NCBI RefSeq assembly: GCF_009914755.1
Contig: NC_060947.1
DNA length: 64,000 nucleotides
Strand: one strand, 5' to 3'
From: the human T2T-CHM13v2.0 reference genome, Homo sapiens
The notes beneath the pieces are model-generated. The model was not told where the DNA came from and did not search any database. It saw nothing but the letters and a program-made list of their open reading frames with translations. Position 1 is the stretch's first letter, and the number at the start of each line of letters is the position of its first letter. This document shows, in pieces, positions 1-21,679 of the stretch. Both the position numbers and the translations under genes were made by a program.

Positions 1-474
1 CTGGGGGAGATACAACAAGACATGTTTTGTGGAGACTAAAGAGCGGAGAACTGGGGAATACTAAGCCTAAGGTCATTGTTTTCTGGCTAGGAAGAAACAA
101 CCATGAAAATATGGCAGAAGAGGTAGCAGGTGGTATGGCGGCCATCGTACAACTTATCAACACAAGGCAGCCACAGGCCAAAATCATTGTATTTGATCTG
201 TTACCTCAAGGTGAGAAACCCAACCCTTTGAGGCAAAAGAACGCCAAGGTGAACCCACTCGTCAAGATTTCGCTGCTGAAACTTAACCAACGTGCAGCTC
301 CTGGATACTGACAGGGGTTTCGTGCACTCCGACCGTGCCATCTCCTGCCACGACATGTTTGATTTTCTGCATTTGACAGGAGGTGGCTACTCAAAGGTCT
401 GCAAACCCTTGAATGAACTGATCATGCAGTTGTTGGAGGAAACACCTGAGGAGAAACAAACCACCATTGCCTGA
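1..474 (+). pseudogene. PAFAH1B2P: Processed pseudogene of PAF acetylhydrolase 1b catalytic subunit 2 (C-terminal two thirds of CDS; 5' part lies before the window)
   Basis: Intronless translation GGDTTRHVLWRLKSGELGNTKPKVIVFWLGRNNHEN...KPNPLRQKNAKVN, then VQLLDTDRGFVHSDRAISCHDMFDFLHLTGGGYSKVCKPLNELIMQLLEETPEEKQTTIA*, matches PAFAH1B2. A +1 frameshift near 285 (ctt-a-acc-aac-gtg) splits ORFs 27..311 and 292..474. Confidence 0.96.
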
Positions 475-933
475 CTGGCTCCCATGAGTGTCAATAGCAT
501 CTCAGCTTCCTCAGATCAGTTATATCACCAGCACTCCAGAATCCTTCTCTTTCTTAAGGCACTTTGCATTGAAGAATGTTCCTGGATGTTCATATCTAGT
601 GTTTGAAGGGGAGGAGGGGTTTAAACTGGTCCTGTACATAGAAAATTTGTTTGACAGAGGAGAAAAATTAGCCAAGGAAGATTGTTGTTTCAATTCATTT
701 GAAACCAGAAGGGGACTTTTTAGTTGTATATGTAACATGTTCATTGAATTATTACTGCTTTCCTAGGACAACATCAAGCCTAAATACTGAACAACATGAA
801 GATTCTTTTCTTGGCCTTTCTTGGATTACATTGTATATAATAATTCTTAGAATCATACCTACTTGGCTTTAAAACATTTTTTTTCCATTTTTTTAAGGTT
901 CATAATTTAGTCTTTGGTTTTTATGTTGCTTAG

Positions 934-1241
<308 letters not shown>

Positions 1242-1802
1242 TGAATATTTTCTTAACATGCAGCATCAGGTTGAACATGCTTGTCATTCAAATATGGAAG
1301 ATGCTATAGTTACAAGTGAATTTATTCTGCTTTCTTAATCTTTCCTGTCCTTAGCAGTGAGAAACAGGTTTTGCCCCAGTAGGGGGACTCTTTGGAGGGT
1401 ATTATTTTTATGCTGCTGAATATCATGTCTATAATGGACCCGTGCATGCAGCCTTTCCTCCCGTTTCCCCATCATCCCCTCTTTTTTTTTTCTTTTTTTT
1501 GGTCCTTGTTGACATTACAAGCTTTTAACACATTTTCGACCTAGGAGCCCTGTTGCTGGAAGTATAGTCTCTAGCCAGCTACTCTTATGATAGTACTGCT
1601 ATAAAATTCATTCTTGTGTGGTATTCTGTGCTATAGAGTCTGTGTATTGCTATTCATATTCGGAGTTCTGGTTTGTTTTGTTTTTCCCTTAAAACCTGTT
1701 ACAGTTTTTTTTTTTTTTTTTTTTTGCTGGGTGGTTGGGGGGTAGGGAATCAGAACTCTGTTTCCCATTCCATATCACCTGACATTATTTCAAGTTTTAT
1801 AA

Positions 1803-2288
<486 letters not shown>

Positions 2289-2642
2289 TAAGGTGTCTCA
2301 TTAATGTACTTCATCTGAGAATTTGTTTTAAGAGCGCACTTTATAATCTTGATGTTTGCTTGAGCTGTAAGAACTGCCATTTCTAAAAAATAATGGGATA
2401 ATAGATGGTTTATTCAGTATACCTAGTGAATATGTACAAACTGGATCTACAGATATTTTGAACTGGACCAGGTGGGTATTGAAGTAACCCATCAAAATAT
2501 GCTCTGCAGTGATTCTGCTTAATGTTCTAATTCAGTAATGAATGTTTTATGTTCTACTGGAAAGGCAAATGGCAGTGCATTTGTGTGTTGGAGGAGGGGT
2601 TAGTGATTTGTGCTAAGACCCACTTCTGACTGTGAGGGATAG

Positions 2643-2967
<325 letters not shown>

Positions 2968-3050
2968 TAACTTGGGCTCATTTTTTCTTGTGAAGTCTCT
3001 TTCTATAATTTTTTTTTGTTTTATTCTTTTTTTAAAAAAATACTTTTTTT

Positions 3051-3083
3051 GAGCAACAGAGTGAGACTTCATCTCAAAAAAAA
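3051..3083 (+). mobile_element. Extremely 5'-truncated Alu (last ~25 nt plus A tail)
   Basis: gagcaacagagtgagacttcatctc-aaaaaaaa flanked by the direct repeat aaaaatactttttt. Confidence 0.8.
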
Positions 3084-3226
3084 TACTTTTTTGAATGTAT
3101 CATGTCTTCATTAACAACAGAAAATCCACATGGTATTTACTAAACTTGTTTATGATATTAAAAATTTCCTTTTTATTTTTAGTAGCCCAGGTTATTGAGT
3201 TTTTCACTAGAGATTTTTTTTCTTAG

Positions 3227-3602
<376 letters not shown>

Positions 3603-4453
3603 TGACAGTTTTCTATCCAGGTCTTTTTCTGTTTGTCAGAAGGTGGGAGTACGATCCAAACAAATCCATTAGGTTACTCCTGCAGCATGCACTTTTAGCT
3701 TCTCTCTTGAACTAGAATCCCATATCCCTGGCCTTCAGCTCCTTTGCTCATGTGTATAAACCTCAGATGTTACTACATTTTATATCTATCAGAGCTATTA
3801 AGCAATAGTATTTGAACCACTAGCCATTTAAATAAAATTCTGCCCCGTTACTCAGGTGCAGATATTGAGTTCACTTTCATTTTTTGCCAGACTTCTTTGC
3901 ACTACTTTAAGCAAAAATAGTCAATCTATTTTTCTTTGATTGACATCCCAGTTTGCTTCAGTGACAGAACTTACTGCTTAGTCTTTGTACTTTAAAAGAA
4001 ATCTATAAATTTAATGAACTGTCCAAGTGAAATGTCGTAGTTGTCATTGTGATTAAGGGGCCAACTTTCCAGGCAGCTAGCAGAGATACTATTCTCTTCC
4101 TCTCCCAGCACATTTTTATTCCTTCATCCACACATTCCTGCTACACTAGATGGCAGCCAATGATGGAACTATAAAGATGTCTGTGGTGGTATCTCAAATG
4201 TGGCAGCTTGAAGATAGACTGCCCAGGGTGACGTAGGGCAGGTTGTCTTCCAGTGCGTGTGTTCTAGATTGCCATAGACCATGCTGTGGCTACCACCCTG
4301 GGTCTACTTGGACTGTCAAGGGCATCTGCCTAAACCAGAATTTTTTGTCTGAAACCTTAGCCCAACAAAATAAATCTTGAGTAGCTCATGCCTGGCTCTT
4401 AGGAATTTTGTTTCTTTGTTTCTTTAAAAAAAAAAAAAAAAAAAAAAAAAGGC

Positions 4454-4796
<343 letters not shown>

Positions 4797-5197
4797 CTAG
4801 TCACTGTTTACAGTTGTATGCTAAAGCCCAAAATATTGTCTGTGCTGTGGTGTATGAGCATTGCCAATTTTATATTTATTGCAGTGAAGAAGAAACTAAA
4901 AATATATGAAAATGAGGAGCTCATTTTCCAATGTCATTGGAAAATGTCCAAGCTCCTAAATCTGTGTGGGTGCATATGGCAGAAGTGAGTTGGGGGCCTC
5001 TTGAAAGGAGGCTTTTTGGAGAGGGGTCTCCCAGGCTTCTCCTTGGTGTTCCTGCTTGGGGATCACTGCTGCTAGCTGACTGGGCCTCCCCAGTGGAAGT
5101 TTGTGATTTTGCTTTGACAAAGTTTCATTGACTAGTAAAACTCATTCTGTTTTAGTGTATATTTCAATAGAAATGTAAACATTTTGCTCAAAAAAAT

Positions 5198-5633
5198 ATT
5201 TTGTGTCACTCCCCTCATAGAGAAGTGAAGTTTATTTCTCCTCCCCCTTGAATTTGGACTGGCCCTGTAACTGCTTTGACCGGTAGAGGGTGGTGAAGTG
5301 ACACTTTGCCTAAGCTTTGAGAAGGCCTGGAAGATTCTGCTTTGTGGTTTTGGATGCTCAGTGGGAGAGAGGTCACATAGAGAGAATGTGTGGAGAGGAG
5401 AGGCCATGAGATCATAACAAGGAAGAGACAGGTCCAAGCATATCAGTTGACTGCCAACTGCGTGAGACCCCAAGTGAGGCCAGCGTAAGAACTGCCCAGC
5501 TGAGCCCACTCAACCCACAGATTTATGAAAGATAATAATATGGTTATTGCTGTATTATTTATTTTTGGTTGCTATCATTTTAAGCCACTAAGTTTTAGGG
5601 TGGTTTACTAGGCAGCAATAGATAACCAAAACA
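5198..5633 (+). mobile_element. MLT1-family (ERVL-MaLR) LTR
   Basis: cccttgaatttggactggccctgtaactgctttgacc...gaactgcccagctgagccc...ttttaagccactaagttttagggtggttt...gcaatagataaccaaaaca. Confidence 0.85.
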
Positions 5634-5639
5634 CTCCCT

Positions 5640-6075
5640 ATATCCTTTAGTACCCAAACCCTGATTTTTACCTGGGCATGTGCAGCTGAAAGACCACATT
5701 TTTGTGGCCTCCCTTTTGGGAAAGAGTGGCCAATTTAACTAATTCTGGAGAAGGACACGTTTTTTGTGGTGTTTCCAGGAAGTCATCTTAAAAGAGAGGA
5801 GTCAGGCCTTTGTCTGCATTCCTCAAATTTGCTGCCTGGAATAGATGTGATGGCTGGAGCCAGGAACCATGAAGACAAGAACCACATCCTAGGGATGGCA
5901 GAGTGGCTGGCTGGAAGGTACCTGGATCTCTGACAATCTTAGAGAGCTATCATACTCCAGCCCTGAACCTACTATTTCCACACATATTTTATAAGAAAGG
6001 GAAATATATCTCTTTTCTGATTGAAGCCATTGTTTTTTTGTTTTATTTTCTGTTCCTTGCAGCTGAACCTAATCC
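5640..6075 (+). mobile_element. Old MLT1 (J/K-like) LTR
   Basis: gcctggaatagatgtgatggctggagc...ggaaggtacctggatctctgac...ttgcagctgaacctaatcct. Confidence 0.7.
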
Positions 6076-6149
6076 TCAGAGACATAGGACAAGACCAAAT
6101 TCCATTATGAAGCATGTTGCCTTGCCTTTGCAAAAGGGGCTTATGTACA

Positions 6150-6720
6150 ATAATTCATTTGTCTACTTTATGGGAACCCTGCATCTGGATAAAATGGTGA
6201 ACAAAATCAGACATAGCCCCTAAGACATGATTAGCTTATAGTTAGTCAAATCATCACAGAACAAATGGAAAACTGTAACTGTCACAAGCCTTTGACAGAC
6301 AAGCTCATGGTGTCAGCATAACCCATAATATGGCCTTTGCTGAATCAAGGAAGACAGGGTCAGGAAGTGATATTTGAGCTGATGTCTGAAAAGTAGGCTG
6401 GAGTTAACTCCATGATGAGGATAGGGAAGAGCGTTGCAGGTGGAGGTGACAGCACAGCGGTTCTGCAGTAGGAGAGAGCATGGCAAATACAATGGACAGA
6501 AAGATGATGTAGCTAGAGTTGGGAGAATGAGGTGAGTTTGGTATGCATGAGGCCAGAGAAGGTTGCAGATGGGAGAATGAGTAGGTTGTTTTCGTGAGTC
6601 TGGTCAATGTTTTAAAAGCATTGAAAAACCACTGAGGGTTCTAAGCTGTCGAATGGCAGTGGTCTAAAGGGGAGAAGATAGTAGTGCAGGAGATGGAGAG
6701 AAGTCAAAAGATTCAAGAGC
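6150..6720 (-). mobile_element. L2 fragment
   Basis: aacaaaatcagacatagcccct...ggaagtgatatttgagctga...aaccactgagggttctaagc. Confidence 0.65.
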
Positions 6721-6829
6721 TATTTCTCACTCATACTTTTGTGCTTGGGTTCCTGGTTTTGGTTTTTATTTGTTATTGAGAGGTTGAACTGAACTAACTT
6801 AATTTTTGGTGAAACCAGGCATATTTGTT

Positions 6830-7220
6830 AGATTGGACTGTATGCAAGTCAGTGACAACAGTGGTTTAAACAAGTTGGAAGCCTATTTCACTTTCATATA
6901 GATGTCGGAACTGATATGGTGGCTCTATTCCAAGAAGTCATAGAGATCCCAGGATCCTTCTGTCTTTTTGCTTTTTTGTCCCTAGGTTGTTGACTTCATC
7001 TGCATGACCCGACTTAGTGCATGTCAACGTTCCATCCCTGGAACAGGGGAGAGGAAAGGAGAGGTCACCTCCCTTCTCTTTTTGGGTATGGTTTAGCAGT
7101 TGCACACATTGCTCTTTATCATATCTCAATGAGCAGAACTTAGATACACTGTCACATCTAGATGCAAAAAAGTTTTAGAACTGTAGTATTTATTCTGTAC
7201 AGCCTTGTGCCTGGCTAGAA
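6830..7220 (-). mobile_element. Old MLT1 LTR fragment
   Basis: aacagtggtttaaacaag...gagatcccaggatccttctgtct...gtcacatctagatgcaa. Confidence 0.6.
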
Positions 7221-7261
7221 CTTTAGAGAGCGACTACTATAGATAATCAGATGGAAATATG

Positions 7262-7328
7262 CACCTGTGGGCAAAATCCAACCATGCCCACTTATTTGCA
7301 TGGTCTATGGCTGCTTTTGCACTACAAG
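7262..7328. mobile_element. MER58-like hAT fragment
   Basis: ccatgcccacttatttgcatggtctatggctgcttttgcactacaa; truncated where the tandem array begins. Confidence 0.55.
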
Positions 7329-10300
7329 TGCCCTTGGTTCTCCAGCATGTGGACAGTGTAGGGGCCAAAAGGATCCCTGGTACCCTAGTGGGTGGGCTGG
7401 TTGGTAGCTGGACAGTTCCCCTAGGTCACCAACACAAGGGACTGACTGTGGGACTGATGGTGGCTGAAAGGATCCTGGAGAAACAGTATGAGGGAGAATG
7501 ATTGTCGATAGAGCTGTAGATTCTACAGCAAGTGGGCAGGCTACTGCCTGAGTAACCTCACTCCTCCATGACCCCAGTTTGTTGTCAGGCTGGTGACTGA
7601 AAGGGATCTCTGAGCACAACTCCTTGGCAGGTTGGGGGCTGGTAGGACCATTGGAACCTTGGCATGCAAGCCGGCTACTGTCTGGAAGGTCCCCTCCCTG
7701 CCACCAGAGCACCAGTGCAAGAGACTGACAGTGGCTCTTCATTCCACAGAATGAAGGCAGGCTGATGGATGGAAGGACCTTCAGTTCTTCAGCACATGTG
7801 TAGGTAGGGGGCCTGAAGGACAAAGGGAACTGTGGCCTGTGGGTGGGCTAGGGACTGGAAGGACCCCATGGCACTAGGGCAAAGCCAGTTGGTGGCTGGA
7901 AAGGGCTCCCAGGCACCAGAACACTGGAAGGATGGTGGCTGAAAGGGCTCTAGACTCAACTGCTTGTGGGCAAGTTGATGACTAATGGCATCCTGTTCCC
8001 TGGCCTACAGGCAGGCTGGGGGATAAAATGATTCCTAGAACCTTAGTGAGTGGGCAAGTTGGTGACAAGGGCCACTGGGACATGGTCCCAAGGAAAGGAT
8101 GGTGAAGAAGAGCCTAAAGGGGCTCTTGCTTCCACAACACTCAGGCCACAAGAAGCCAGAAGGGCCTTCAGTTTCCCAGGTGAACGCAGGCTGGAGCCTA
8201 GAAGGACTGACTGCTACATGGCACCTGGGCAGGCTGGTGGCTGAAAGGGCTCCAAGGACACTAGTTCATGTGCAGGCTGGTGACCCTAAGGGTCTCCAAT
8301 ACAGTTCTCTAGCTCACAAGCAACTGGGTAACCTGAAGGGCTTTCTTTACACTGGTACTCTAGAAGGACACTGGCCGAATGGGCCCTGGCTTACTACTGC
8401 ACATGAGCATGCTGAGAGATTGAAGGACTGGCAGAACCCTGTTGTGTGGACAGGCAGGTGGCTGGAAGGAGCCAGGGGGCATCATCATGCAAGATGGTGG
8501 CTGAAAAAGTCCTCACTTTCCCAGCAGGCAAGCAGCCTGTGGCCAGAAGGCAACTCTGTTTTCCAGCATGCAAGAGCTGTAAGAAGACAAAAAGGGTCTC
8601 ATCAATACAGTATGTGGGCAAGAGAACTTCTGGATGGTCCTCAGTTCCCTAACATGCATGGAAGCTGGAGGGCCAAAATAACCTGCAGAACTCTCGTTGA
8701 GAGTCAGGTTAGGGACCGGAAGTCCCTCCAGGATACCAGGGTGTGGGAAACAGTTGCCAAAAGGCATCTGTCTTACATAGTGCCTGGAGACCTGGGGGCG
8801 GGTCTTAGAGTTCCTCAGTCCACCACAGGTTGGGGCCCTGAAGGATCCACTGGTGTGTGGATTTCAGGATGGCTGGTGCTCAGAAGGGCCTCCAATCCTG
8901 TTATCCAGCTGCTGATTAGCTGGTAGTCGGAAGGGTCCTTGATACACCCGCATGAAGAATGGAAAGAAGGATGGTGGCTGAGAGGGCTCTCACTTCCCCA
9001 GTATACCTACAGCCCGAGACCAGAAAAGTCCTCAGATCCGTGGTGAGTGAGGCCCATATGGTGGCCCAAAGAGCTCTCATTTCCACAGTAAGTGGCTCAC
9101 TGATGGTCATTTTACCCTCTGTTTCTCAGCAAGTAAAGCAAGGTGGGGAGGGGGTTAGTGTGGTGTTGAAATGACCCACGGAACCTTAGCAAGTGGCCAG
9201 ATTTCTGACAGGAAGACCCCTTGGGGGCACCAGCGCGTAGGGCAGGATGGTAGCTGAAAGAGCTCCTGCTTCCTCAAAACGCGGTTGGTGTGAAGATAAC
9301 AAAAGGCCCTTGGCTCTATAACATGTGAGGCCGGGATGGTGGCGGAAGTGGCTATCAGTTACATAGTTATCGGCTGTAGAATTGCTGGAATGGCCTCCAT
9401 TCCCCACCATGCCGGAAGGTGGGGGCCGAAATGAGCCACGGAACCCTAGTGAACAGCCAGGTTGCTGACCGGCAGGGCCTCTGGAACACCAGTGTGAGAA
9501 AGATGGTTGCCAAATGGGCTTTTGTTTTCACAGCACTTGGGAGGCCTGAGACTGTAAGGGCTTTTAGTTCCCTGTCCGCTGCAGCCTGGGGACCTTAAGG
9601 ATCCATGGATGTGTGGATTTTGGGCTGCCTGGTGGCTGGAATGGCCTCCAATTCAGTTTTCCAGTTGGAAAGCAGTGAGTAGCCGGAAGGGCTCTCAGTG
9701 CACCAGTATGGAGAGAAGGACGGTGGCTGAGCAGGATCTCACTTCTGCAGTACGTGGGCAAGTTGTAGCAGGAAGGAACCTCGGTTCCCCACCCCTGGGG
9801 AGCCCATTTGGTGGCCAAAAGGCACTTTCATTTCCAAAGCACATTGGCCGGCTGAAGACTGGTTGGCGCTTGGTTCCCCAGTCCCAGGCAGGTCGGGGGC
9901 TAAAATGACCCAGGGAACTCTAGTGGGTGGGCATTTTTCTGACCGGAACCCCCTTCCCCGCCCCACCAGTGTGAACCGGAGAGGGAGAAGTATGGTGGCC
10001 CAAAGGAGTCTCCTGCCCACGGTAAACCTGAGATCTGAAGCCCCCCGAGCCCTCAGCTCCCCACTACGCGAGGCCCATATGGTAGTCAACAAGGCTCTCA
10101 TTTCCACAAGGCGTGTTCCAGTGATGGTTGGCACTCTCTTTCTCAGCATGCATGTAGGCCAGGGGTCCAAATCACCAAGGGAACATTAAACGGCGGCCAG
10201 GTTTCTGATGGGGAAGTCCCTTGGGACACCAGCACTTAGAAGAAGGGTGGCTGAGAAACCTCTCACTTCCACAGCACACAGGCAGGAAGGACCACAAGGG

Positions 10301-10387
10301 CCCTTGCCTCTCCACCGTGCAAAGGCTGTAAGGTGGTCCAGAGTGCTCTTATTTCCACAGCAAGTTGAAGACCGATGGCTGGTTGAC

Positions 10388-10707
10388 TTTTTTTTTTTTT
10401 TTTTTTTTTTTTTGTGACGGAATCTTGCTCTGTTACCCAGGCTGGAATGCAATGGCACTCTCAGCTCACTGCAACCTCCGGCTTCCGGGTTCAAGGATTC
10501 TCCTGGCTCAGCCTCCTGAGTAGCTGGGATTACAGGCGTGAGCCACCGTGGGGGTACATGCCACCACCTCCAGCTAATTTTTGTATTTTTAGTAGAGACG
10601 GGGTTTCACCATGTTGGTCAGGCTGGTCTCGAACTTCTGACCTCGTGATCCACCCACCTCGGCCTCCCAAAGTGCTGGGATTACAGGCGTGAGCCACCGT
10701 GCCCGGC
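10388..10707 (-). mobile_element. AluS inserted in the tandem array
   Basis: Alu in reverse; TSD tggctggttgact on both sides. Confidence 0.95.
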
Positions 10708-11000
10708 TGGCTGGTTGACTCTTTGTTCCTCAGTACCCATGGAAGCTGGGGGCCAAAATGACCAGGCAGAACCCTAGTGGGTGGGTTCATGGGACCTTCC
10801 ATGAACCAGTGCAGGTGAAGCATAGTGGCCCAGTGGGTTCTCATGTCCACAGTGCACCTGTGGCCTGGGTCCAGAAGAGCCCTTGGCTTCCCACAACATG
10901 AGGCCTGTAAGGTGGCCAAAAGGGTTCTCATTCCCACGGCATTTGGGCAGGCCGATGTCTGGTTGGTCCTCTGTTCTTTGACATGTAGCAGTCTGGGGTC

Positions 11001-11387
11001 CTGTATTACTTCGTTTGGATTACTGTAAAGAAATACCAGAGACTGGATAATTTAGAAAGAAAAGTGATTTAATTGACTGACGGTTCTGCAGGCGGTACAG
11101 GAAGTGTGGTGCTGGCATCTGCTTCTGTAGGCCTCAGGAAGCCTACAATCATGGTGGAAAGTGAATGGGGAGCAGGCAAGAGCCAGAGCAAGAGAGTGGG
11201 GAGGTGCCACATACTTTTAAACAACCAGATCTCCCATGAACTCACTCATCACCAAGGGGATGGCGCTAAGCCATTCATGAGGAGTCAGCCCTCATGATCC
11301 AAACACCTCCCACCAGGCCCCACCTCCAAAACTGGCCATTACATTTCAACATGAGATTTGGAGGGGACAAACATCCAAACCATATCA
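11001..11387 (-). mobile_element. MST-family (MaLR) solo LTR inserted in the array
   Basis: tgtattacttcgtttggattactgtaaagaaataccagagactgg...ggggacaaacatccaaaccatatca (TG...CA termini). Confidence 0.9.
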
Positions 11388-11699
11388 GGGCTGAAATAAC
11401 CTGGGGACCTCTAGTGGGCAGATAGGCTGGTGACCACGTTCTTCAGGGTGCTGGTAATTTGTCTTATTAATTCATAGGCTTTCAGAAGAAGAGAAGCCAA
11501 ATGTGGACTTCAGCAGATGGGGAGAACAGCACATCCCCCAGAGATCATGGTCTTTTATCTGGATGCAGTGACCAGGTAACGCTTTGTTTTTTCTTTCTTT
11601 GGGGAGGTGGTTTGTGTCTAGGTTGAAGCGTGTAATGCATATTTGATGACCAGAAGAGAGGAATATGGCAAGATTGCAAATGTTTATCAATGTCCTTGT

Positions 11700-12404
<705 letters not shown>

Positions 12405-12451
12405 AACTTGGTGTCTTGAACCAGCTGAGTTCTCTGAAACCCATTTTAAGT

Positions 12452-12752
<301 letters not shown>

Positions 12753-13021
12753 CATTTTAAGTCTTTAAGGTCCTGGTGGTTGGACGTGAAGTTTGGATGG
12801 TCAATATCACACTGCTGATCCTTGGCCACTGGCTTTTGTTGGTGACTTCAGTTTTGGTGAGTCTCTCCTTTGAGCTGTACCTTTTGTGCACTCAACCCAA
12901 GATAAGATCTTGGACCTAGGCCGGCAATGGTCTCAGCAGAGAGCATGTCCAATAGGTATTTTAAAAGCCTCGAGGGTTTGTCAAAAGGAGTTTCCTTATT
13001 CTTGTTAAAGTCTCTCCCCCT

Positions 13022-13430
<409 letters not shown>

Positions 13431-13671
13431 TCAACATGAAATAGCAACATAAAGTATCAATATGAAATATCAATGCAGTATATTAATATGAAGTTGATGT
13501 ATTGTGGAGACATGAAACACATGACTACACAAATATTTAATTGGCAATACTTGGGATATGTATTATGAAGGAAAAGTACTTTGTGCTATGAAAATAAACA
13601 GCAGGGGGATCTGACTTGAGGAAGTGAAAGGTCTGAGGGATGAGTAGGCGTTATCTACAATGTTATTAAAA

Positions 13672-13821
13672 TCAGTGGTTCTTAAATTTGAGTGTGCAAC
13701 AGAATTATCTGGAGCACTTGTAAAACACAGATGGCTGGGCCCCACCCAAGAGTTTCTAATTCAGTAGGTCTGGGGTGATATTGATGCTGTTGTTCAGGGA
13801 CCATACTTTGAGAACCAACTG
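13672..13821. mobile_element. MER5A-like hAT-Charlie MITE
   Basis: cagtggttcttaaa...ctttgagaaccaactg terminal inverted repeats. Confidence 0.8.
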
Positions 13822-14079
13822 ATCTTTACTATATCTCCCAACAAACACACTTGAGCACAATGCTGAAGGTGGGTTATAGGCCAGCTGAAAAATTGCTCTA
13901 CCTCACCTCTCAGGGGCAGCCAAGGGGCTGGGGCAGAACTCAAAAGTGGTAATCTCTAGCTGTGGGTGGTCTCATGCATTCTCCCAGCATGTGATACCAA
14001 TATCATACTTATCTACTATAATAGCAAAAGTTTGAGAAGAGCTGAGCTGGTCAAATGGCGAGAGGCAGGTGATAACTGT

Positions 14080-14970
14080 TAGATAAAGAGAGGAGTTTGT
14101 ATGAGGGCCTTGCAGCAGGAAAGAGTGCTGCATCTTCACAGAACTGAGAGAAAACCAGTGAAGCTGTAGAGGAGGAAGTCCAGGGAAGACGATGGAAGAA
14201 TAATTTAGAGGGTCAGCTCATCTAGGGCTTGGAGGACCTCATTAAGGACTCACATAAAGGAGAAGCCATTGAAGGTTTTTTTTTTTTTTTGAGACGGAGT
14301 CTGGCTCTGTCGTCCAGGCTGGAGTGCGGTGGTGCAATCTCGGCTCACTGCAAGCTTCACCTACTGGCTCAAGTGATTCTCCTGCCTCAGCTTCCCGAGT
14401 AGCTGGGACTACAGGCACGTGCCACCACGCCTGGCTAATTTTTGTATTTTTAGTAGAGACGGGGTTTTACCATATTGGCCAGGCTGGTCTCAAACTCCTG
14501 ACCTCGTGATCCACCTGCCTTGGCCTCCCAAAGTGCTGGGATTACAGGCGTGAGCCACCATGCATGGCCACCATTGAAGAATTTTAAGCAAGGGAATGGA
14601 TTGGAAAGGTGCGGGTGTGCATGTGGGGATAGCAATTAGGAAGCTACTGCCTAGTCTAGCATGGAAATGATGGTGAGATGGTCTAAGGTGGATAAAGTGA
14701 AGATGGAAGCATTGGAAAGATGTTTCGGAGGTCAATCAATAGAACTTGGTGATTACTGGATATAGAGGTTGAAGGATAAGGAGGTATCTGATATAATTCT
14801 CAAATGTCTAGCTTGAAATGTTTTGTTTTCTGAGATAAGCCACACTGATGGTCACATTTGGGAGAAAGAGCAGTTTTGGAGATGCTGAATATGGAATGCT
14901 TTTGTTTTTAATCATCTAATTGGAGTTGTTGGTTAGGCAGCAGAATATATGGCCTTGGACCTCAGAGGAC
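14080..14970 (-). mobile_element. L2 fragment interrupted by an Alu
   Basis: aagccattgaag...ttttaagcaaggga...agaacttggtgattactggatatagag. Confidence 0.7.
14276..14568 (-). mobile_element. AluS
   Basis: Alu in reverse; TSD ccattgaag. Confidence 0.95.
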
Positions 14971-15127
14971 ATTTAGGATTATGGGTAACCTCAGAGGACC
15001 TGTGGTTTGTGGTGGTTTGGACCTTAGAGGACATGTGGGTGTGTGGGGCTGGACTTTAGAAAATGTCCAAATGGACGTTGTTAGTGTGCAAAGAGATGGT
15101 CCCTGAATCCACGCTACGTATGTGGAA

Positions 15128-15752
<625 letters not shown>

Positions 15753-15822
15753 CAAGGAAGAGTGTGTAGGACAAAATTGTGAGGAATTCAGTTGAATGAA
15801 CAAATTTGAAGCTCTAGTATAG

Positions 15823-16126
<304 letters not shown>

Positions 16127-16392
16127 TAGAATAGTCTGGTACAAAAGGATGTGGGGTGGCCAGGCAGGTAGAATCAGGAGAGCATGGTGTCCTGAAAACC
16201 AAGGCAAGAGGACATTCAGTCTTCCTTGCTCTCTGGTGTCCCAGGTCCCAGTGATTCTAGGTTGGATGTAAAGAAAGTACTAGGTAGGTATCATTTTAGG
16301 AAATGCCCCTGGTGGAAAATGTTTCTGTTTTGATTCATTTCTCTTTAATATAGAAGACAGAGCTTCAAGGCTTAAAATACTTGCCTGAATCA

Positions 16393-16778
<386 letters not shown>

Positions 16779-17439
16779 TTATAATTTAACAAGTCTTAAA
16801 TCAGGTTGTGGTTTGATTTGATCCGGAGAGATGAGAAATTCAACTCTTGTGAAAGGGTTACTGTCAGGCCACAAAAAGCTGTAGGATTTGTTTCAAAAGC
16901 ATCCTTCTGCTAGGGAAGTAAACTTGAGTTAAAACTTAAAGTAATAAGGTGAATGATGTCTCAAAAATAGTCAGCGAGATCTCAGTTCTATTCTATAGGC
17001 CCCTTTTAAACTGTTTGTATTTTATTTTATTATTAATTGACACATAAAATTGTACATATTTATGGGGGTACTATTATATAGGCTTCTATTATGGCATAAT
17101 AGAGTACTTCTAGAGTAAGAAATAAAGAAGGCTTACTGTCTGGTCAGGTAAATTGATGATCTTTGTCTTAGCTGTCAATGAGGATGCTAACATCTCTACT
17201 TACACTATTTGGGCCTGTTATATGGATAAAAAATGTAAATACCCAAAAGTGATTTAAAAATGTTAAAATGTCAACATGAAATATCAATATAAAGTATCAA
17301 TATGAAATATCAATATAGTTTATCAATATGAAGTTGAACTAATGTTCTAGAACTTGAGAAGGACCTTCAACATAGACATCTGTAAATGATGTTATCTAAT
17401 ACTTGCTTACATGTGCTAATGACGAGAAACAGCTTTAAT

Positions 17440-17572
17440 GGACTATATAATTTATTGTCCAAACCAGAACACTTTGGAGTGTGAAAAGGAGTGGAGTGTG
17501 TTTAATAGTTACTCCAGAACCACAGGCAAAACCCAGGACTGTCTTGGGTAAAATGGGAGACATGATCACCTA
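17440..17572. mobile_element. MER94/MER81-like hAT-Blackjack MITE
   Basis: tataatttattgtccaaaccagaacac...ccaggactgtcttgggtaaaatgggagacatgatcacct. Confidence 0.6.
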
Positions 17573-20500
17573 GGCATAGGTGAAATGTCAGTGGATATAT
17601 ACTTGCTTTGTCCGATGATGTGGTGACATAAGATCTGTGATGCAAAATGATTTTTTTCCTAAAAACTCATTCTCTTGGATATGCTATAACATCTCAGTTT
17701 CACAGACAGGAATCCTGGGCTAAGTGAGAGAGAGGAAAGTAATAAGCACAAAACTTAACCATTGCCAGTTCCCTTTATTGCTTCCAAAGGGCATTTAAGA
17801 ATTCACCAGAAGGATTTATTGCTTTAGCATTCTTAACCTTAATGAAGTAATTTGAGTTTTCACTCTCAGAGAAGACTGTGGTGGGTGAAAAGAAGATTGG
17901 ACAAGTCTTCACTGAAAGATATTAACTAGTGGAATTAGTAAGCAAAAGAGGGTAGATTCAGTAGCGTTCATATCCCAGGCAAACTAATGTACAATGCATT
18001 TATATTCTCATGCAAGTAGATGAGATTCAATAGTATGCACAGAATTTGAATGTTTCAAATGATTCATTTGGAGCCTGGGTACGGTTCTAGCTAGCCCCTT
18101 TAGGCGAGAATGATTTGGGGACTTGTAGGTGAGATTAACAGGACAGTAATTTACATACATTTTCTTTTTGTGTTTCTTATCTTCTAAAGCTTGAGGTAGG
18201 TTTCATACCTTTGCTAGAAGTCTTGCTGGAATGTGATTGAATGACGGTGGCAGCTGATGTACTATTAGAAGACAGAGCTATAGATGGACATTTCTCAGTA
18301 ATCAGGTAAGTAGGCAAGCTGGCCTTTGTTCTCTGCATAATCTGAAGTGCTCTCTGATCTGCAGCATAGCACGTGAAAAGCAGCACATCTGAATTGACAA
18401 AGAGATCTTTATTTCTATTCCACAATGCACAGAGAAAAGGTAGAAAGAGAATTGGAGTGTGAATTTATTTATTCAGGAGCGTGAGCTATCAGTTTGAGCA
18501 AAGGAAATGCTAATAGAGGTTATGTTCCTTCTTCAAGACTGCGTTTCCTGTCTCATGTTGTTGTATTATGTTTGTGTGCTGGGTCCAGAAGCATAACCTC
18601 CCAGTCAGTGGGCCACAGTGGAACAGCAAAAGGAACAGCTGCCTGGGTGAGAGGATTAATCCATGCGCATTCCAGCTCTGCCCCTGGCCGAAAGGAATAC
18701 GCCCTTAACCAGGCTGGGCCATACTTTCCCCTTTTTGCAAATCCACGTATAAAGAGAGATAATTGAGGACATAATAAAATGATCAACACGCCAAACCTTT
18801 GAGTTTGTAGAAAGTCGCCATCTAAATTTTTGTCTTTGGATGAACTGAATTAGTATAGTGTTTGTTTATTTTCTGGACCAAAATTCGGTGTTCCTGTATA
18901 TGTAGGTGACCCTGCTGAAGTCAATGGCAACATCTTGGATACATTCAGATATTGACTTTGGGATTGGCAAAATAGTAGAGTCACTATCACCATCTCATGG
19001 CAATGTAGTCATTGCACGGTAAAAACAATGAATTCTTGTTTTATTGTGGTATTTTGAAATTCTAACTACCCTAATTTGGGGTCATGATAATATCTCTATT
19101 CAGAGCAGTAGCATTTGTTGTTATTTGATGTGTCTTGTGTGGTGATTCTTACACTGAATACTGGAGACGTATTTACTGCTACTTGTCCAGTTTGAAATTG
19201 ATTTAAAGGCTGTAAGTTCATACTGGGAAAAACAAAATTCTTTGGAACTCCATTGCTCACTTTAAAGAACATAACTTTCGATTAGCCTTCCAGTCTTAGA
19301 TTGGTTTAAAGATGTTTCACGTCAGATGTCTGTGGCCGTTTAGAGCAGCTCCCAGGTGAGGAATTTACAGTGGGGAAATCACACCTGGGGGTGAGGAGTG
19401 GACAAGGGCATCTCTGAGCCAGCATTCCTTGTATAGTGTCCAGGCATTTGAGAAATGGGCATTGAATGGTCGTTTGAATCATGTATTTTCTAGGCTCTGG
19501 AAAATGCAAGAAGGAAAGTTGGAGAATCCTGCTCAATACAGGATTATCAGCTAAAATCTATCTCCTTCCTAACCCAGCCCTTGGTAGTTCTTTGGAGCTC
19601 TGAGCAGAGAGCAGCAGTTCATGGGTACAATGGAAAGGTTTAAAGATCCTTCAGCAAAGATGTTGTAGAATGTTCAGAGTTAACCATGGTGTTGTTCAGT
19701 TCAGCTCCTGGGGCTTCCATTTCCTCCTGCCTTCTTTGGAAATCATTTCCTGGTGTTCTAATTCTGTATCTTGCCGAGTAGCAAAAATGTGGAGGAAAAC
19801 CCCGGAAGTAACTTGTGGTTAAGTTTCAAGTTTTTTGGCTTTTATCCAAACACTCGTGAGCTTCATTTGTGTTCACATATAAGAAAAGCCAACCCGGATC
19901 TTCTAATAATGCTTTATTTAGTGCTTAAACTTTAATTGCAGGGTACAAATGATACCATTAGGAACCGATATCAGTACTAATGCCACCTATATTATTATTT
20001 ACTCCTCTGAAAACTAAGCTTGTTGAAATATATTTATTAACACTGTACCCCAGCACTACACATTTAAAGCTTAATTCTGTGGCTGTTCATGAATTCTCAG
20101 CATACTACAGTGTTGAGGCTTCCTAGCTTGAGATAAGTTCATTATGAAATGGGAGTGATAAAGTGTGTTAGTGTTTAAGTTAGTGTGTTAGTGTTTAAGT
20201 TAGTGTTAGTGTTAGTGATAAAGTGTTTTTCCAGGTCACAAATACAAGCTGGTTTATGCAAAGGATGAAGCACCCTTTGTGTAATTCTAGTCCCTTTAGC
20301 TAACAAACAGTTAAATTCAGCATTTATGATGTATAAACTTTGCTCCTTAGCATTAAAATGTACCTTATTCACTCGGTAGATTTCTCTTTCAACCATGGCT
20401 ATTGTTTGTCACTAACAGCTAGCTTTTGTGAAGTTAATAAATGTGCATAATAAGGACATAAAGGTATGGAGAAGTAATACTGTAATCCTTTTGTTTGGAT

Positions 20501-21679
20501 AATCAGTCTAATGTATGCAAATTAAACCTTATTAGTACTAGGGTTTTGTGTCTGCTTATCAAAATGTGCCATTTTCATGAAAATTGGAAGTCCATTATAT
20601 AAAGTTATTATTAACAGTCATTTAGGAATTATATACGGTATGCAAATTAAAGTTGATTACAACTAATTAAGGGCTTTCTTTGTTATTTGACCTTGTCTGC
20701 TTTTTATGTAAATATGTTTCTTTTGGTCTGGCATATTTTTAGACTCAGAAAAGTATATTAAGACAAGTTACATTATGTAGTTTTTAATATATCTTTGTGT
20801 TGCCATTGTCTGTGCCCCTCATTTTCCAGAGGCACATATGATATGTAAAGCCATGTATCTTATTTCACTATTTGGGGATGGTTCTCTAGGTAAGTGGGAT
20901 TTCCGAAATAGAAAACAATCAAATTTCCAGGCCCCTTCAATGAGTTTAATGGAAAATGAGCACAAATCCAGTATAACATATAAACAGTCTTCATGCCAGA
21001 ATACCCTTTTTTCCACTATTTATTGACTTCAGTGAGTCTTGGGTTACAGATTTCCAAACAGAGCTGAGTAATAGATGATCATTACTGGCTTACAGGGTGT
21101 CCCGCAAAACCTAATTGTTTGTTATCTGTGAAAGCATTCAGCTAAAGATAAGTGACTTTACCACAGAAAATGTAACAGTCTCAGTACCAATGGCCTTTAG
21201 GAAGAATTGTGCACTCCCTGTAAAAATGAGGAGTTTCTTAGTGAGCGAGGAGGAAACATTTGAAGTGTGACTTTTAAACACTTATTAAGTTATATCTTTC
21301 CTTCAGTACAGTTGCTCTAGTTGTTTTCTGTTAACAAAGAAGCTTGATACAGTGGCTGGAGCAAAGCATCCTGGGGCACTTGGTTTAATTGCACGATGGA
21401 AGAGATCTGTTAATCAATAGCTTTTCAAATGCCTTGAAGTATACTGGTAGGAAAAAGAATGTGAAGATAAACAGTCCAAGGAAAGAGGCCAGAATATTGC
21501 AAGAGTGGAGAAAAACAAATAGTTATCTAGGTATTTAAAAGGGGCAAGCAAGAAACTAGGAACCAAATCACCACTGAATTCATCCAAATTTTGAACATTT
21601 TCTTTTATTTTTTGACTTTGAACAACAACAGTTTAATCTTTGAAAAATGCCATTTGAATGCTTATAAAGGGATTGAAAG

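What the first reader, a model, noticed from the sequence alone, without database searches (positions are those of the whole stretch)
7330..11440. Unassigned ancient ~3.4-kb tandem array of ~42-bp monomers with higher-order structure
Seen: GC-rich sequence with G skew on +, built from diverged monomers (by-eye consensus gcaggctggtggctgaaagggctctcanttccacagcacntgg). At least four monomer types alternate: A ggggccaaaatgacc..gaaccctagtgggtgggc; B ..ctgaccggaagggcc..caccagtgtg; C ggatggtggctgagagggctctcacttccacag; D ..ggaagg..ctcggttcccca. A-type landmarks lie about 260 apart at 9160/9420 and 9895/10162, and about 264 and 247 apart downstream once the Alu is removed, suggesting six-monomer blocks. 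8828-9290 aligns in order with 9583-10270. I do not recognise it as a named satellite or transposon. Inference: a locus-specific fossil macrosatellite, possibly a multivalent protein-binding platform or repeat RNA domain. Best candidate for an undescribed element in this window.
Basis: partly seen in the sequence, partly recalled or inferred. Interest (0 to 1): 0.8.

Follow-up and report, generated by a model that had tools for sequence, protein, structure and literature searches.

The report
Ancient decayed tandem repeat upstream of ARX
This is a real but very old and worn-down single-copy tandem repeat (43-base units grouped in blocks of six) lying about 21 kb upstream of the ARX gene, and everything measured fits a neutral genomic fossil, not a working element.

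Summary
Window ~7328-11452 contains about 3.4 kb of head-to-tail, same-strand ~43-bp monomers. They are grouped into a ~256-bp six-monomer higher-order unit present about 13-14 times. On top of these lie older 2-unit (524 bp) and 3-unit (755 bp) duplications. An Alu (10379-10712) and a MaLR-type solo LTR (~11002-11387) inserted later.

Units are only 42-66% alike, and the youngest internal duplication is ~70% identical. TRF therefore finds nothing, and the array probably dates to around or before the eutherian radiation.

It appears to be single-locus. DNA, pattern and six-frame searches of the 3.1-Gb T2T genome return only the array itself, while control repeats are recovered. The flanks show no LTRs, terminal inverted repeats or transposon coding remnants.

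The decay looks neutral:
- CpG o/e is 0.19, the same as the background.
- Consensus CpGs have mostly become TG or CA.
- GC has fallen from 61% (consensus) to 55%.
- Column conservation is uniform.
- There are no Pfam or Rfam hits.

Dfam, orthologue alignments and ChIP data could not be checked. Verdict: a new member of a known kind, of low interest.

The parts
7328..10378 (+). Main body of the array: about 71 monomers of ~43 bp, organised in ~256-bp six-monomer units. Units start near 7359, 7629, 7877 (partial), 8013, 8260 (partial), 8413, 8664, 8919, 9158, 9416, 9676, 9890 and 10156.
10379..10712 (-). Alu insertion that splits one unit. The same ~11-nt stretch (GGCTGGTTGAC) is read on both sides of it, as a target-site duplication.
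   Evidence: SRP-RNA-like Rfam matches at 10412-10707 on the minus strand. Masked stretch 10379-10712 in the hub's annotation. Sequence read.
10713..11001 (+). Continuation of the array: one full unit, 10743-10986, scoring 148 bits.
   Evidence: Monomer hits at 10818, 10862 and 10907.
11002..11387 (-). MaLR-type solo LTR inserted into an A-type monomer (the family name is recalled, not tested). The monomer resumes directly after the LTR.
   Evidence: The query 10991-11386 gives 9693 first-look candidates genome-wide; the 39 non-self matches scored are 76-82% identical. The A-type copy at 11387-11435 is 71% identical to its reference copy (family D11).
11388..11452 (+). Last, partial unit of the array (model positions 8-76), marking the right boundary.
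   Evidence: 11387-11452, 21.1 bits, E 5.8e-06.
7273..7327 (.). Short fragment of an unrelated dispersed repeat abutting the left boundary of the array.
   Evidence: Matches of 84-85% on contigs C7 and C1. Neither of those loci carries array-like sequence within +/-4 kb.

Best explanation
This is a single-locus, very old, degenerate tandem repeat. A GC-rich ~43-bp minisatellite unit multiplied in place by unequal exchange or replication slippage (inferred mechanism). Six diverged monomers then became fixed as a ~256-bp higher-order unit, which was itself amplified to about 13-14 copies. Finally, blocks of two and three units (524 and 755 bp) were duplicated. Homogenisation then stopped, and the array has since decayed like ordinary methylated, unconstrained DNA, picking up a MaLR-type LTR and later an Alu. 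It most likely does nothing today: it is a neutral relic in the gene-poor region ~21-25 kb upstream of the ARX promoter. Shown here: periodicity, hierarchy, strand uniformity, the order of the insertions, absence of recognisable paralogues, and decay signatures. Inferred: the mode of amplification, the age (around or before the eutherian radiation), and the lack of function.
For: Structure:
- 43-bp periodicity with multiples.
- 54 same-strand monomer hits in the array against 4 chance-level hits in the remaining ~60 kb.
- The 256-position model tiles the array and recovers four held-out units at ~75 bits.
- 25 internal blastn HSPs, none on the opposite strand, with offsets of 755, 524 and 1021.
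- The best unit pairs lie at lags of 3 and 2 units.

Age:
- Unit pairs are 42-66% identical (mean 53.5%, K2P ~0.8).
- The youngest duplication is 69.6% identical. That is lower than the 76-82% between the inserted LTR and the best 39 matches scored in its family.
- The LTR and the Alu both interrupt units.

Single locus:
- Three DNA queries covering 7330-10370 each return one candidate, themselves.
- A 29-nt monomer motif with <=3 mismatches gives 3 hits, all in the array, and 0 for the control.
- A 24-nt window stretch with <=3 mismatches gives 9 hits: 5 in the array and 4 scattered singles.
- A six-frame search with the 286-aa open frame finds the 70%-identical internal copy (E 1.6e-5) but nothing else below E 0.5.
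- Controls work: the LTR, an old repeat in the right flank (140 candidates, 68-93% identity), and an L2-like fragment in protein mode (11 weak dispersed hits).

Not a transposon part:
- Of 134 stop-free frames >=45 aa in 7.3 kb of left flank and 7.5 kb of right flank, none matches reverse transcriptase, endonuclease, gag or transposase families.
- Flank-to-flank blastn gives HSPs at only two left-flank sites (3050-3598, 4421-4732), which coincide with stretches masked as repeats and which I read as Alus; there are no LTR- or TIR-like pairs next to the array.

Neutral decay:
- CpG o/e is 0.19, against 0.205 for the window.
- At the six consensus CpG sites, of 72 cells 10 remain CG, 21 are TG and 17 are CA.
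- Consensus GC is 61% against 55% now, in a 41% GC window.
- The majority-base fraction is 0.69-0.70 for all four bases, and conservation shows no 43-bp periodicity (p = 0.31).
Against: - No other mammalian genome, Dfam library, ChIP, methylation or RNA data could be consulted. Neither conservation nor occupancy has therefore been tested, and 'no function' rests on indirect sequence signatures from one genome.
- The column-conservation test has low power (12 units), and its consensus was built from the same units.
- The DNA-mode genome search missed the L2-like fragment at 6316-6603. A very old, low-copy dispersed family (pairwise identity below ~65%) would therefore escape it. The pattern searches recover at most 5 of ~79 monomers even inside the array.
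- GC is still 14 points above the window average, and there is a 286-codon stop-free frame. Both are unusual, although both are expected from a GC-rich monomer that lacks stop triplets.
Confidence: 0.72

Rival explanations
1. The array is a working multivalent platform: many weak copies of one motif bind a zinc-finger or similar factor, or it is a repeat domain of an unannotated RNA, within the ARX regulatory landscape.
For: About 79 same-strand copies of a shared core (the TGGTGGC, AAGGGCTC and TTCCACAG parts of the monomer consensus). It lies ~21-25 kb upstream of a developmental gene with many distal enhancers (hub annotation; a RefSeq enhancer at 20170-20757 in the same window). GC remains well above the surroundings. 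The periodic signal is still recognisable despite great age.
Against: CpG depletion equals the background and consensus CpGs have decayed. No sub-motif is better conserved than the rest of the unit (p = 0.31). No G-quadruplex motifs. No Rfam family above noise. No gene or functional element is annotated over it (hub table). No paper mentioning this locus turned up in four searches.
Confidence: 0.12
2. It is the internal tandem-repeat section of a very old, low-copy interspersed element (for example an ancient L1 5' end or an ERV or DNA-transposon internal region) that already has a Dfam entry.
For: Some transposons carry internal monomer arrays (established knowledge, for example mouse L1 5' monomers). 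The genome searches available here lose sensitivity below ~65-70% identity. A short fragment of a dispersed repeat abuts the left edge.
Against: No second locus in 3.1 Gb by DNA, pattern or six-frame search, although an L2-like control gives 11 weak hits in the same mode. No reverse transcriptase, endonuclease, gag or transposase remnants in 134 flank frames. An L1 5' end should sit on an L1 body, because L1 copies are truncated from the 5' side (established knowledge). No flanking LTR or TIR pair. The two loci sharing the 55-bp left-flank piece carry no array.
Confidence: 0.1
3. It is the wreck of a repetitive protein-coding exon or gene (six monomers = 258 bp = 86 codons).
For: A 286-codon stop-free frame at 8066-8926 (+) and a 180-codon one at 7305-7847 (-). 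The higher-order unit length is close to a multiple of three.
Against: None of the 7 longest frames matches Pfam at E<=1. The 43-bp base period is not a multiple of three. Open frames occur on both strands and in several frames, as expected from a monomer consensus that contains no stop triplet (consensus). The six-frame genome search with the 286-aa frame finds no gene-like relative.
Confidence: 0.02

Closest known systems
Classical GC-rich minisatellites (VNTR loci with 10-100 bp units)
   Same: Single-locus, head-to-tail array. The unit is ~43 bp, GC-rich, with G/C strand asymmetry (G skew +0.12). It presumably grew by unequal exchange or gene conversion.
   Different: Present-day minisatellites are homogeneous enough for TRF. 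Here units are 42-70% alike and TRF reports nothing. This array also has a fixed six-monomer higher-order unit and larger nested duplications.
Alpha-satellite-type higher-order repeat organisation
   Same: A hierarchy of diverged monomers forming a multi-monomer unit that is itself amplified.
   Different: Monomers are 43 bp, not 171 bp. The array is 3.4 kb, not megabases, lies on a chromosome arm and is not centromeric. The higher-order units are not homogenised (mean 53.5% identity).
X-linked macrosatellites such as DXZ4 (recalled from the literature, not tested here)
   Same: An X-linked tandem array outside the centromere.
   Different: Macrosatellite units are kilobases long, highly similar, CpG-rich and polymorphic in copy number. 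Here units are 256 bp, very diverged and CpG-depleted (o/e 0.19).
Monomeric 5' ends of L1 elements
   Same: Tandem monomers in one orientation.
   Different: No L1 body or coding remnant beside the array and no dispersed copies.

Membership tests
Tandem repeat (minisatellite with higher-order units) | Head-to-tail copies on one strand at a constant period, beyond chance | tested here: met
   Lags 42 and 43, z 8.5 and 12.6. 54 plus-strand monomer hits in the array against 4 weak hits in the other ~60 kb. 0 of 25 internal HSPs are on the opposite strand.
Tandem repeat (minisatellite with higher-order units) | A multi-monomer unit that repeats as a block | tested here: met
   The 256-position model tiles the array, and four held-out units score 74-76 bits. 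The consensus splits into six 43-nt monomers.
Interspersed transposable element (L1 5' end, ERV or DNA-transposon internal part) | Multiple dispersed copies in the genome | tested here: not met
   Only self matches. Pattern hits cluster only here. The six-frame search finds only the internal copy. Controls are positive.
Interspersed transposable element (L1 5' end, ERV or DNA-transposon internal part) | Adjacent element parts: coding remnants, LTR pair or terminal inverted repeats | tested here: not met
   0 of 134 flank frames match transposon protein families. Flank-to-flank HSPs fall only at two masked sites that I read as Alus.
Interspersed transposable element (L1 5' end, ERV or DNA-transposon internal part) | Match to a curated Dfam or Repbase consensus | not testable with these tools
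Macrosatellite | Units of about 1 kb or more, highly similar to each other | tested here: not met
   Units are 43 and 256 bp. Unit pairs are 42-66% identical.
CpG-island-like regulatory repeat | CpG observed/expected well above background | tested here: not met
   CpG o/e is 0.19 in the array against 0.205 in the window. Only 10 of 72 consensus-CpG cells are retained.
Structured RNA family | Match to an Rfam covariance model | tested here: not met
   Within the array there are only two noise-level rows (E 0.65 and 0.99, far below the gathering scores). All real matches lie in Alus.

The most novel reading that the evidence does not exclude
The array is an undescribed, mammal-wide conserved multivalent docking site (dozens of weak sites for one zinc-finger factor) that helps organise chromatin upstream of ARX. 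On this reading, its persistence as a recognisable 43-bp lattice after more than 100 million years reflects selection on spacing or motif density, not on individual bases.
Probability: 0.07. Interest if true: 0.6.

Novelty: new member of a known kind. Interest (0 to 1): 0.2.

Why it matters
If the reading is right, little changes biologically. It is one more decayed tandem repeat that standard repeat finders such as TRF miss, and it is useful mainly as an annotation and as a test case for tools aimed at degenerate repeats. It also explains a GC-rich, G-skewed 3.4-kb patch in the ARX upstream region that might otherwise be mistaken for a regulatory or coding feature when non-coding variants or structural variants near ARX are interpreted. 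It would matter more only if orthologue or occupancy data showed constraint or binding.

Tried and rejected
I replaced it with 134 stop-to-stop frames.
I replaced it with patterns and a six-frame protein query.
- The internal control for DNA mode was uninformative. The 70% paralogue 755 bp away was not listed separately, probably because it falls in the same candidate region.
- Exact multi-motif patterns at 43-bp spacing match the array itself 0-1 times, so they were not used genome-wide.
- The coding hypothesis was rejected.
- The G-quadruplex idea was rejected: no motif in the array.
- The Science and PMC versions of the T2T repeat paper are not held under the ids I tried, which were recalled. 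The passages I read from the bioRxiv version do not mention chrX or ARX, and its supplementary tables of newly annotated arrays are closed, so an entry for this locus there cannot be excluded.
- The passages I read from a T2T CTCF-site preprint do not mention this locus.
- Resemblances of the monomer core to known transcription-factor half-sites or to minisatellite 'core' motifs came only from memory. They were not tested and are not used.
Full report
**What is there**

The sequence between about 7328 and 11452 is GC-rich: 0.547 against 0.406 for the window, with G skew +0.12. It is built from diverged ~43-bp units in one orientation.

In 7330-10378, the fraction of positions sharing a 5-mer with the position 42 or 43 bases downstream is 0.0080 and 0.0113. 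Thirty mononucleotide shuffles give 0.0011 +/- 0.0008, so z is 8.5 and 12.6. Further peaks lie at 86, 130, 173, 217, 251/260 and 474-477.

Tandem Repeats Finder at its lowest permitted score lists no array with a ~42-bp period in 6000-13000. The copies are too diverged for it.

A monomer HMM grown from 14 seed copies over four rounds gives 57 hits at E<=10 inside 7322-10946. Of these, 54 are on the + strand, with start-to-start spacings mostly of 41-48 bp or about two or three times that. The other ~60 kb of the window gives 4 hits, all weak (E 0.78-9.2).

**Higher-order structure**

On the window this model gives 17 matches, all on the + strand:
- Sixteen tile 7289-11452.
- One is noise (1.7 bits).
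- The eight training units score 120-159 bits.
- Four units not used for training (7629-7869, 8413-8657, 8919-9134, 9676-9880) score 74-76 bits (E ~1e-22).
- Four partial pieces score 9.6-40.8 bits.

The 256-nt consensus resolves into six consecutive ~43-nt monomers.

Above this level, blastn of the array against itself gives 25 HSPs and none on the opposite strand. The two strongest are 8623-9003 ~ 9378-9752 (69.6% over 388, offset 755, three units) and 9714-10107 ~ 10238-10937 (65.8%, offset 524, two units). Another, 9049-9276 ~ 10070-10273, has offset 1021.

Twelve units aligned to the profile are 42-66% identical (mean 53.5%, K2P about 0.8). The best pairs lie two or three units apart.

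**Later insertions and age**

An Alu lies at 10379-10712. The evidence is SRP-like Rfam matches on the minus strand, the masked stretch in the hub table, and the same ~11-nt string on both sides of it.

A MaLR-type solo LTR lies at ~11002-11387. The family name is recalled. What was tested is that this query gives 9693 first-look candidates, and the 39 non-self matches scored are 76-82% identical. Both insertions interrupt units. The A-type monomer broken by the LTR resumes at 11387-11452.

The youngest duplication in the array (about 70% identity) is more diverged than this LTR is from the best 39 matches scored in its family. The array had therefore stopped growing before that LTR family spread. 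I infer that the last duplications date to around the eutherian radiation and that the six-monomer unit is considerably older. This is an inference from one genome.

**Is it a transposon part?**

The T2T genome (3.1 Gb) is held and was searched in several ways.
- DNA queries 7330-8820, 8623-9003 and 8800-10370 each return one first-look candidate, themselves.
- A 29-place monomer motif with up to 3 mismatches gives 3 hits, all inside the array, and 0 for the reversed control.
- A 24-nt window stretch was chosen because it recovers the most monomers inside the array (5). It gives 9 hits genome-wide: 5 in the array and 4 scattered singles on three other contigs, with 0 for the control.
- A six-frame search with the 286-aa open frame of 8066-8926 scores 27 candidates. 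It finds itself, the ~70%-identical internal copy at window 9422-9670 (E 1.6e-5), and one chance-level place (E 0.59).

Positive controls:
- The LTR.
- An old dispersed repeat in the right flank at about 11717-11940 (140 candidates, 68-93% identity).
- In protein mode, a purine-skewed fragment at 6316-6603 that I take from memory to be an L2 3' end (11 weak dispersed hits at E 0.04-0.96).

Limits of these searches:
- DNA mode did not recover the L2-like fragment.
- A low-copy family older than about 65% pairwise identity therefore cannot be excluded.

**Flanks**

Among 134 stop-free frames of 45 aa or more in 1-7320 and 11441-19000, no frame matches a reverse transcriptase, endonuclease, gag or transposase family. 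The only meaningful match is the GDSL-lipase-like frame at 3-308, which is the annotated PAFAH1B2 pseudogene.

Blastn of 3000-7325 against 11441-16000 gives HSPs at only two left-flank sites, 3050-3598 and 4421-4732. These coincide with stretches masked as repeats, and I read them as Alus. Nothing matches within 5000-7325 or 11441-12060.

A 55-bp piece at 7273-7327 has two 84-85% matches elsewhere. Neither locus holds array-like sequence within 4 kb by the unit model or the monomer HMM.

**Signs of function**

No test gave a positive sign.
- CpG o/e is 0.19 in the array against 0.205 in the window. It runs from 0.03-0.12 on the left to 0.26-0.38 on the right.
- At the six CpGs of the unit consensus, of 72 unit-by-site cells 10 remain CG, 21 are TG and 17 are CA. 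This is the signature of methylated, unprotected DNA.
- The consensus is 61% GC and the present sequence 55%, drifting towards the 41% of the surroundings.
- The majority-base fraction per column is 0.69-0.70 for A, C, G and T alike. Conservation along the unit has no 43-bp periodicity (permutation p = 0.31), so no monomer sub-motif has been preferentially kept. This test has low power.
- No G-quadruplex motif.
- No Rfam match above noise in the array.
- No Pfam match for the seven longest open frames. The 286-codon open frame is explained by a monomer consensus without stop triplets and by frames on both strands.
- The hub table lists no gene or functional element over the array.

**Literature**

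Four full-text searches (listings only) and passages from two preprints turned up nothing on this locus.

**Verdict**

Its structural reading, a locus-specific fossil tandem array with six-monomer blocks, is supported. Its functional suggestions have no support. The array is best described as an ancient, single-locus, degenerate minisatellite with a 256-bp higher-order unit that has been decaying neutrally. It is a new member of a known kind and of low interest unless orthologue or occupancy data show constraint.

Noticed in passing
window 6316-6700: Purine-skewed stretch (GC skew up to 0.37) that looks, from memory, like an L2 3' end. The DNA-mode genome search did not recover relatives, while the six-frame mode gave 11 weak dispersed hits. 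This is a useful gauge of how sensitive those tools are.
   Followed up: partly
window 11717-11940: Old dispersed repeat in the right flank: 140 first-look candidates, with matches of 68-93% identity over 50-210 bp. The family was not named.
   Followed up: partly
window 8066-8926 (+): A 286-codon stop-free frame inside the array, with no Pfam match and no relative elsewhere in the genome. It is a by-product of a monomer without stop triplets.
   Followed up: yes
window 7322-10822: CpG o/e rises from 0.03-0.12 in the left third of the array to 0.26-0.38 in the right third. The right part also holds the youngest duplications.
   Followed up: no
window 12062-16000 and 3050-4802: Dense cluster of Alu-like copies on both strands around the array: mutually 77-87% identical over their long matches, with SRP-like and Alu-borne 'miRNA' Rfam rows at 12097-12381.
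   Followed up: no
window 3-308 (+): Open frame with a GDSL-lipase-like Pfam match (E 6.8e-07, just under the curated cut-off), fitting the annotated PAFAH1B2P1 pseudogene.
   Followed up: no
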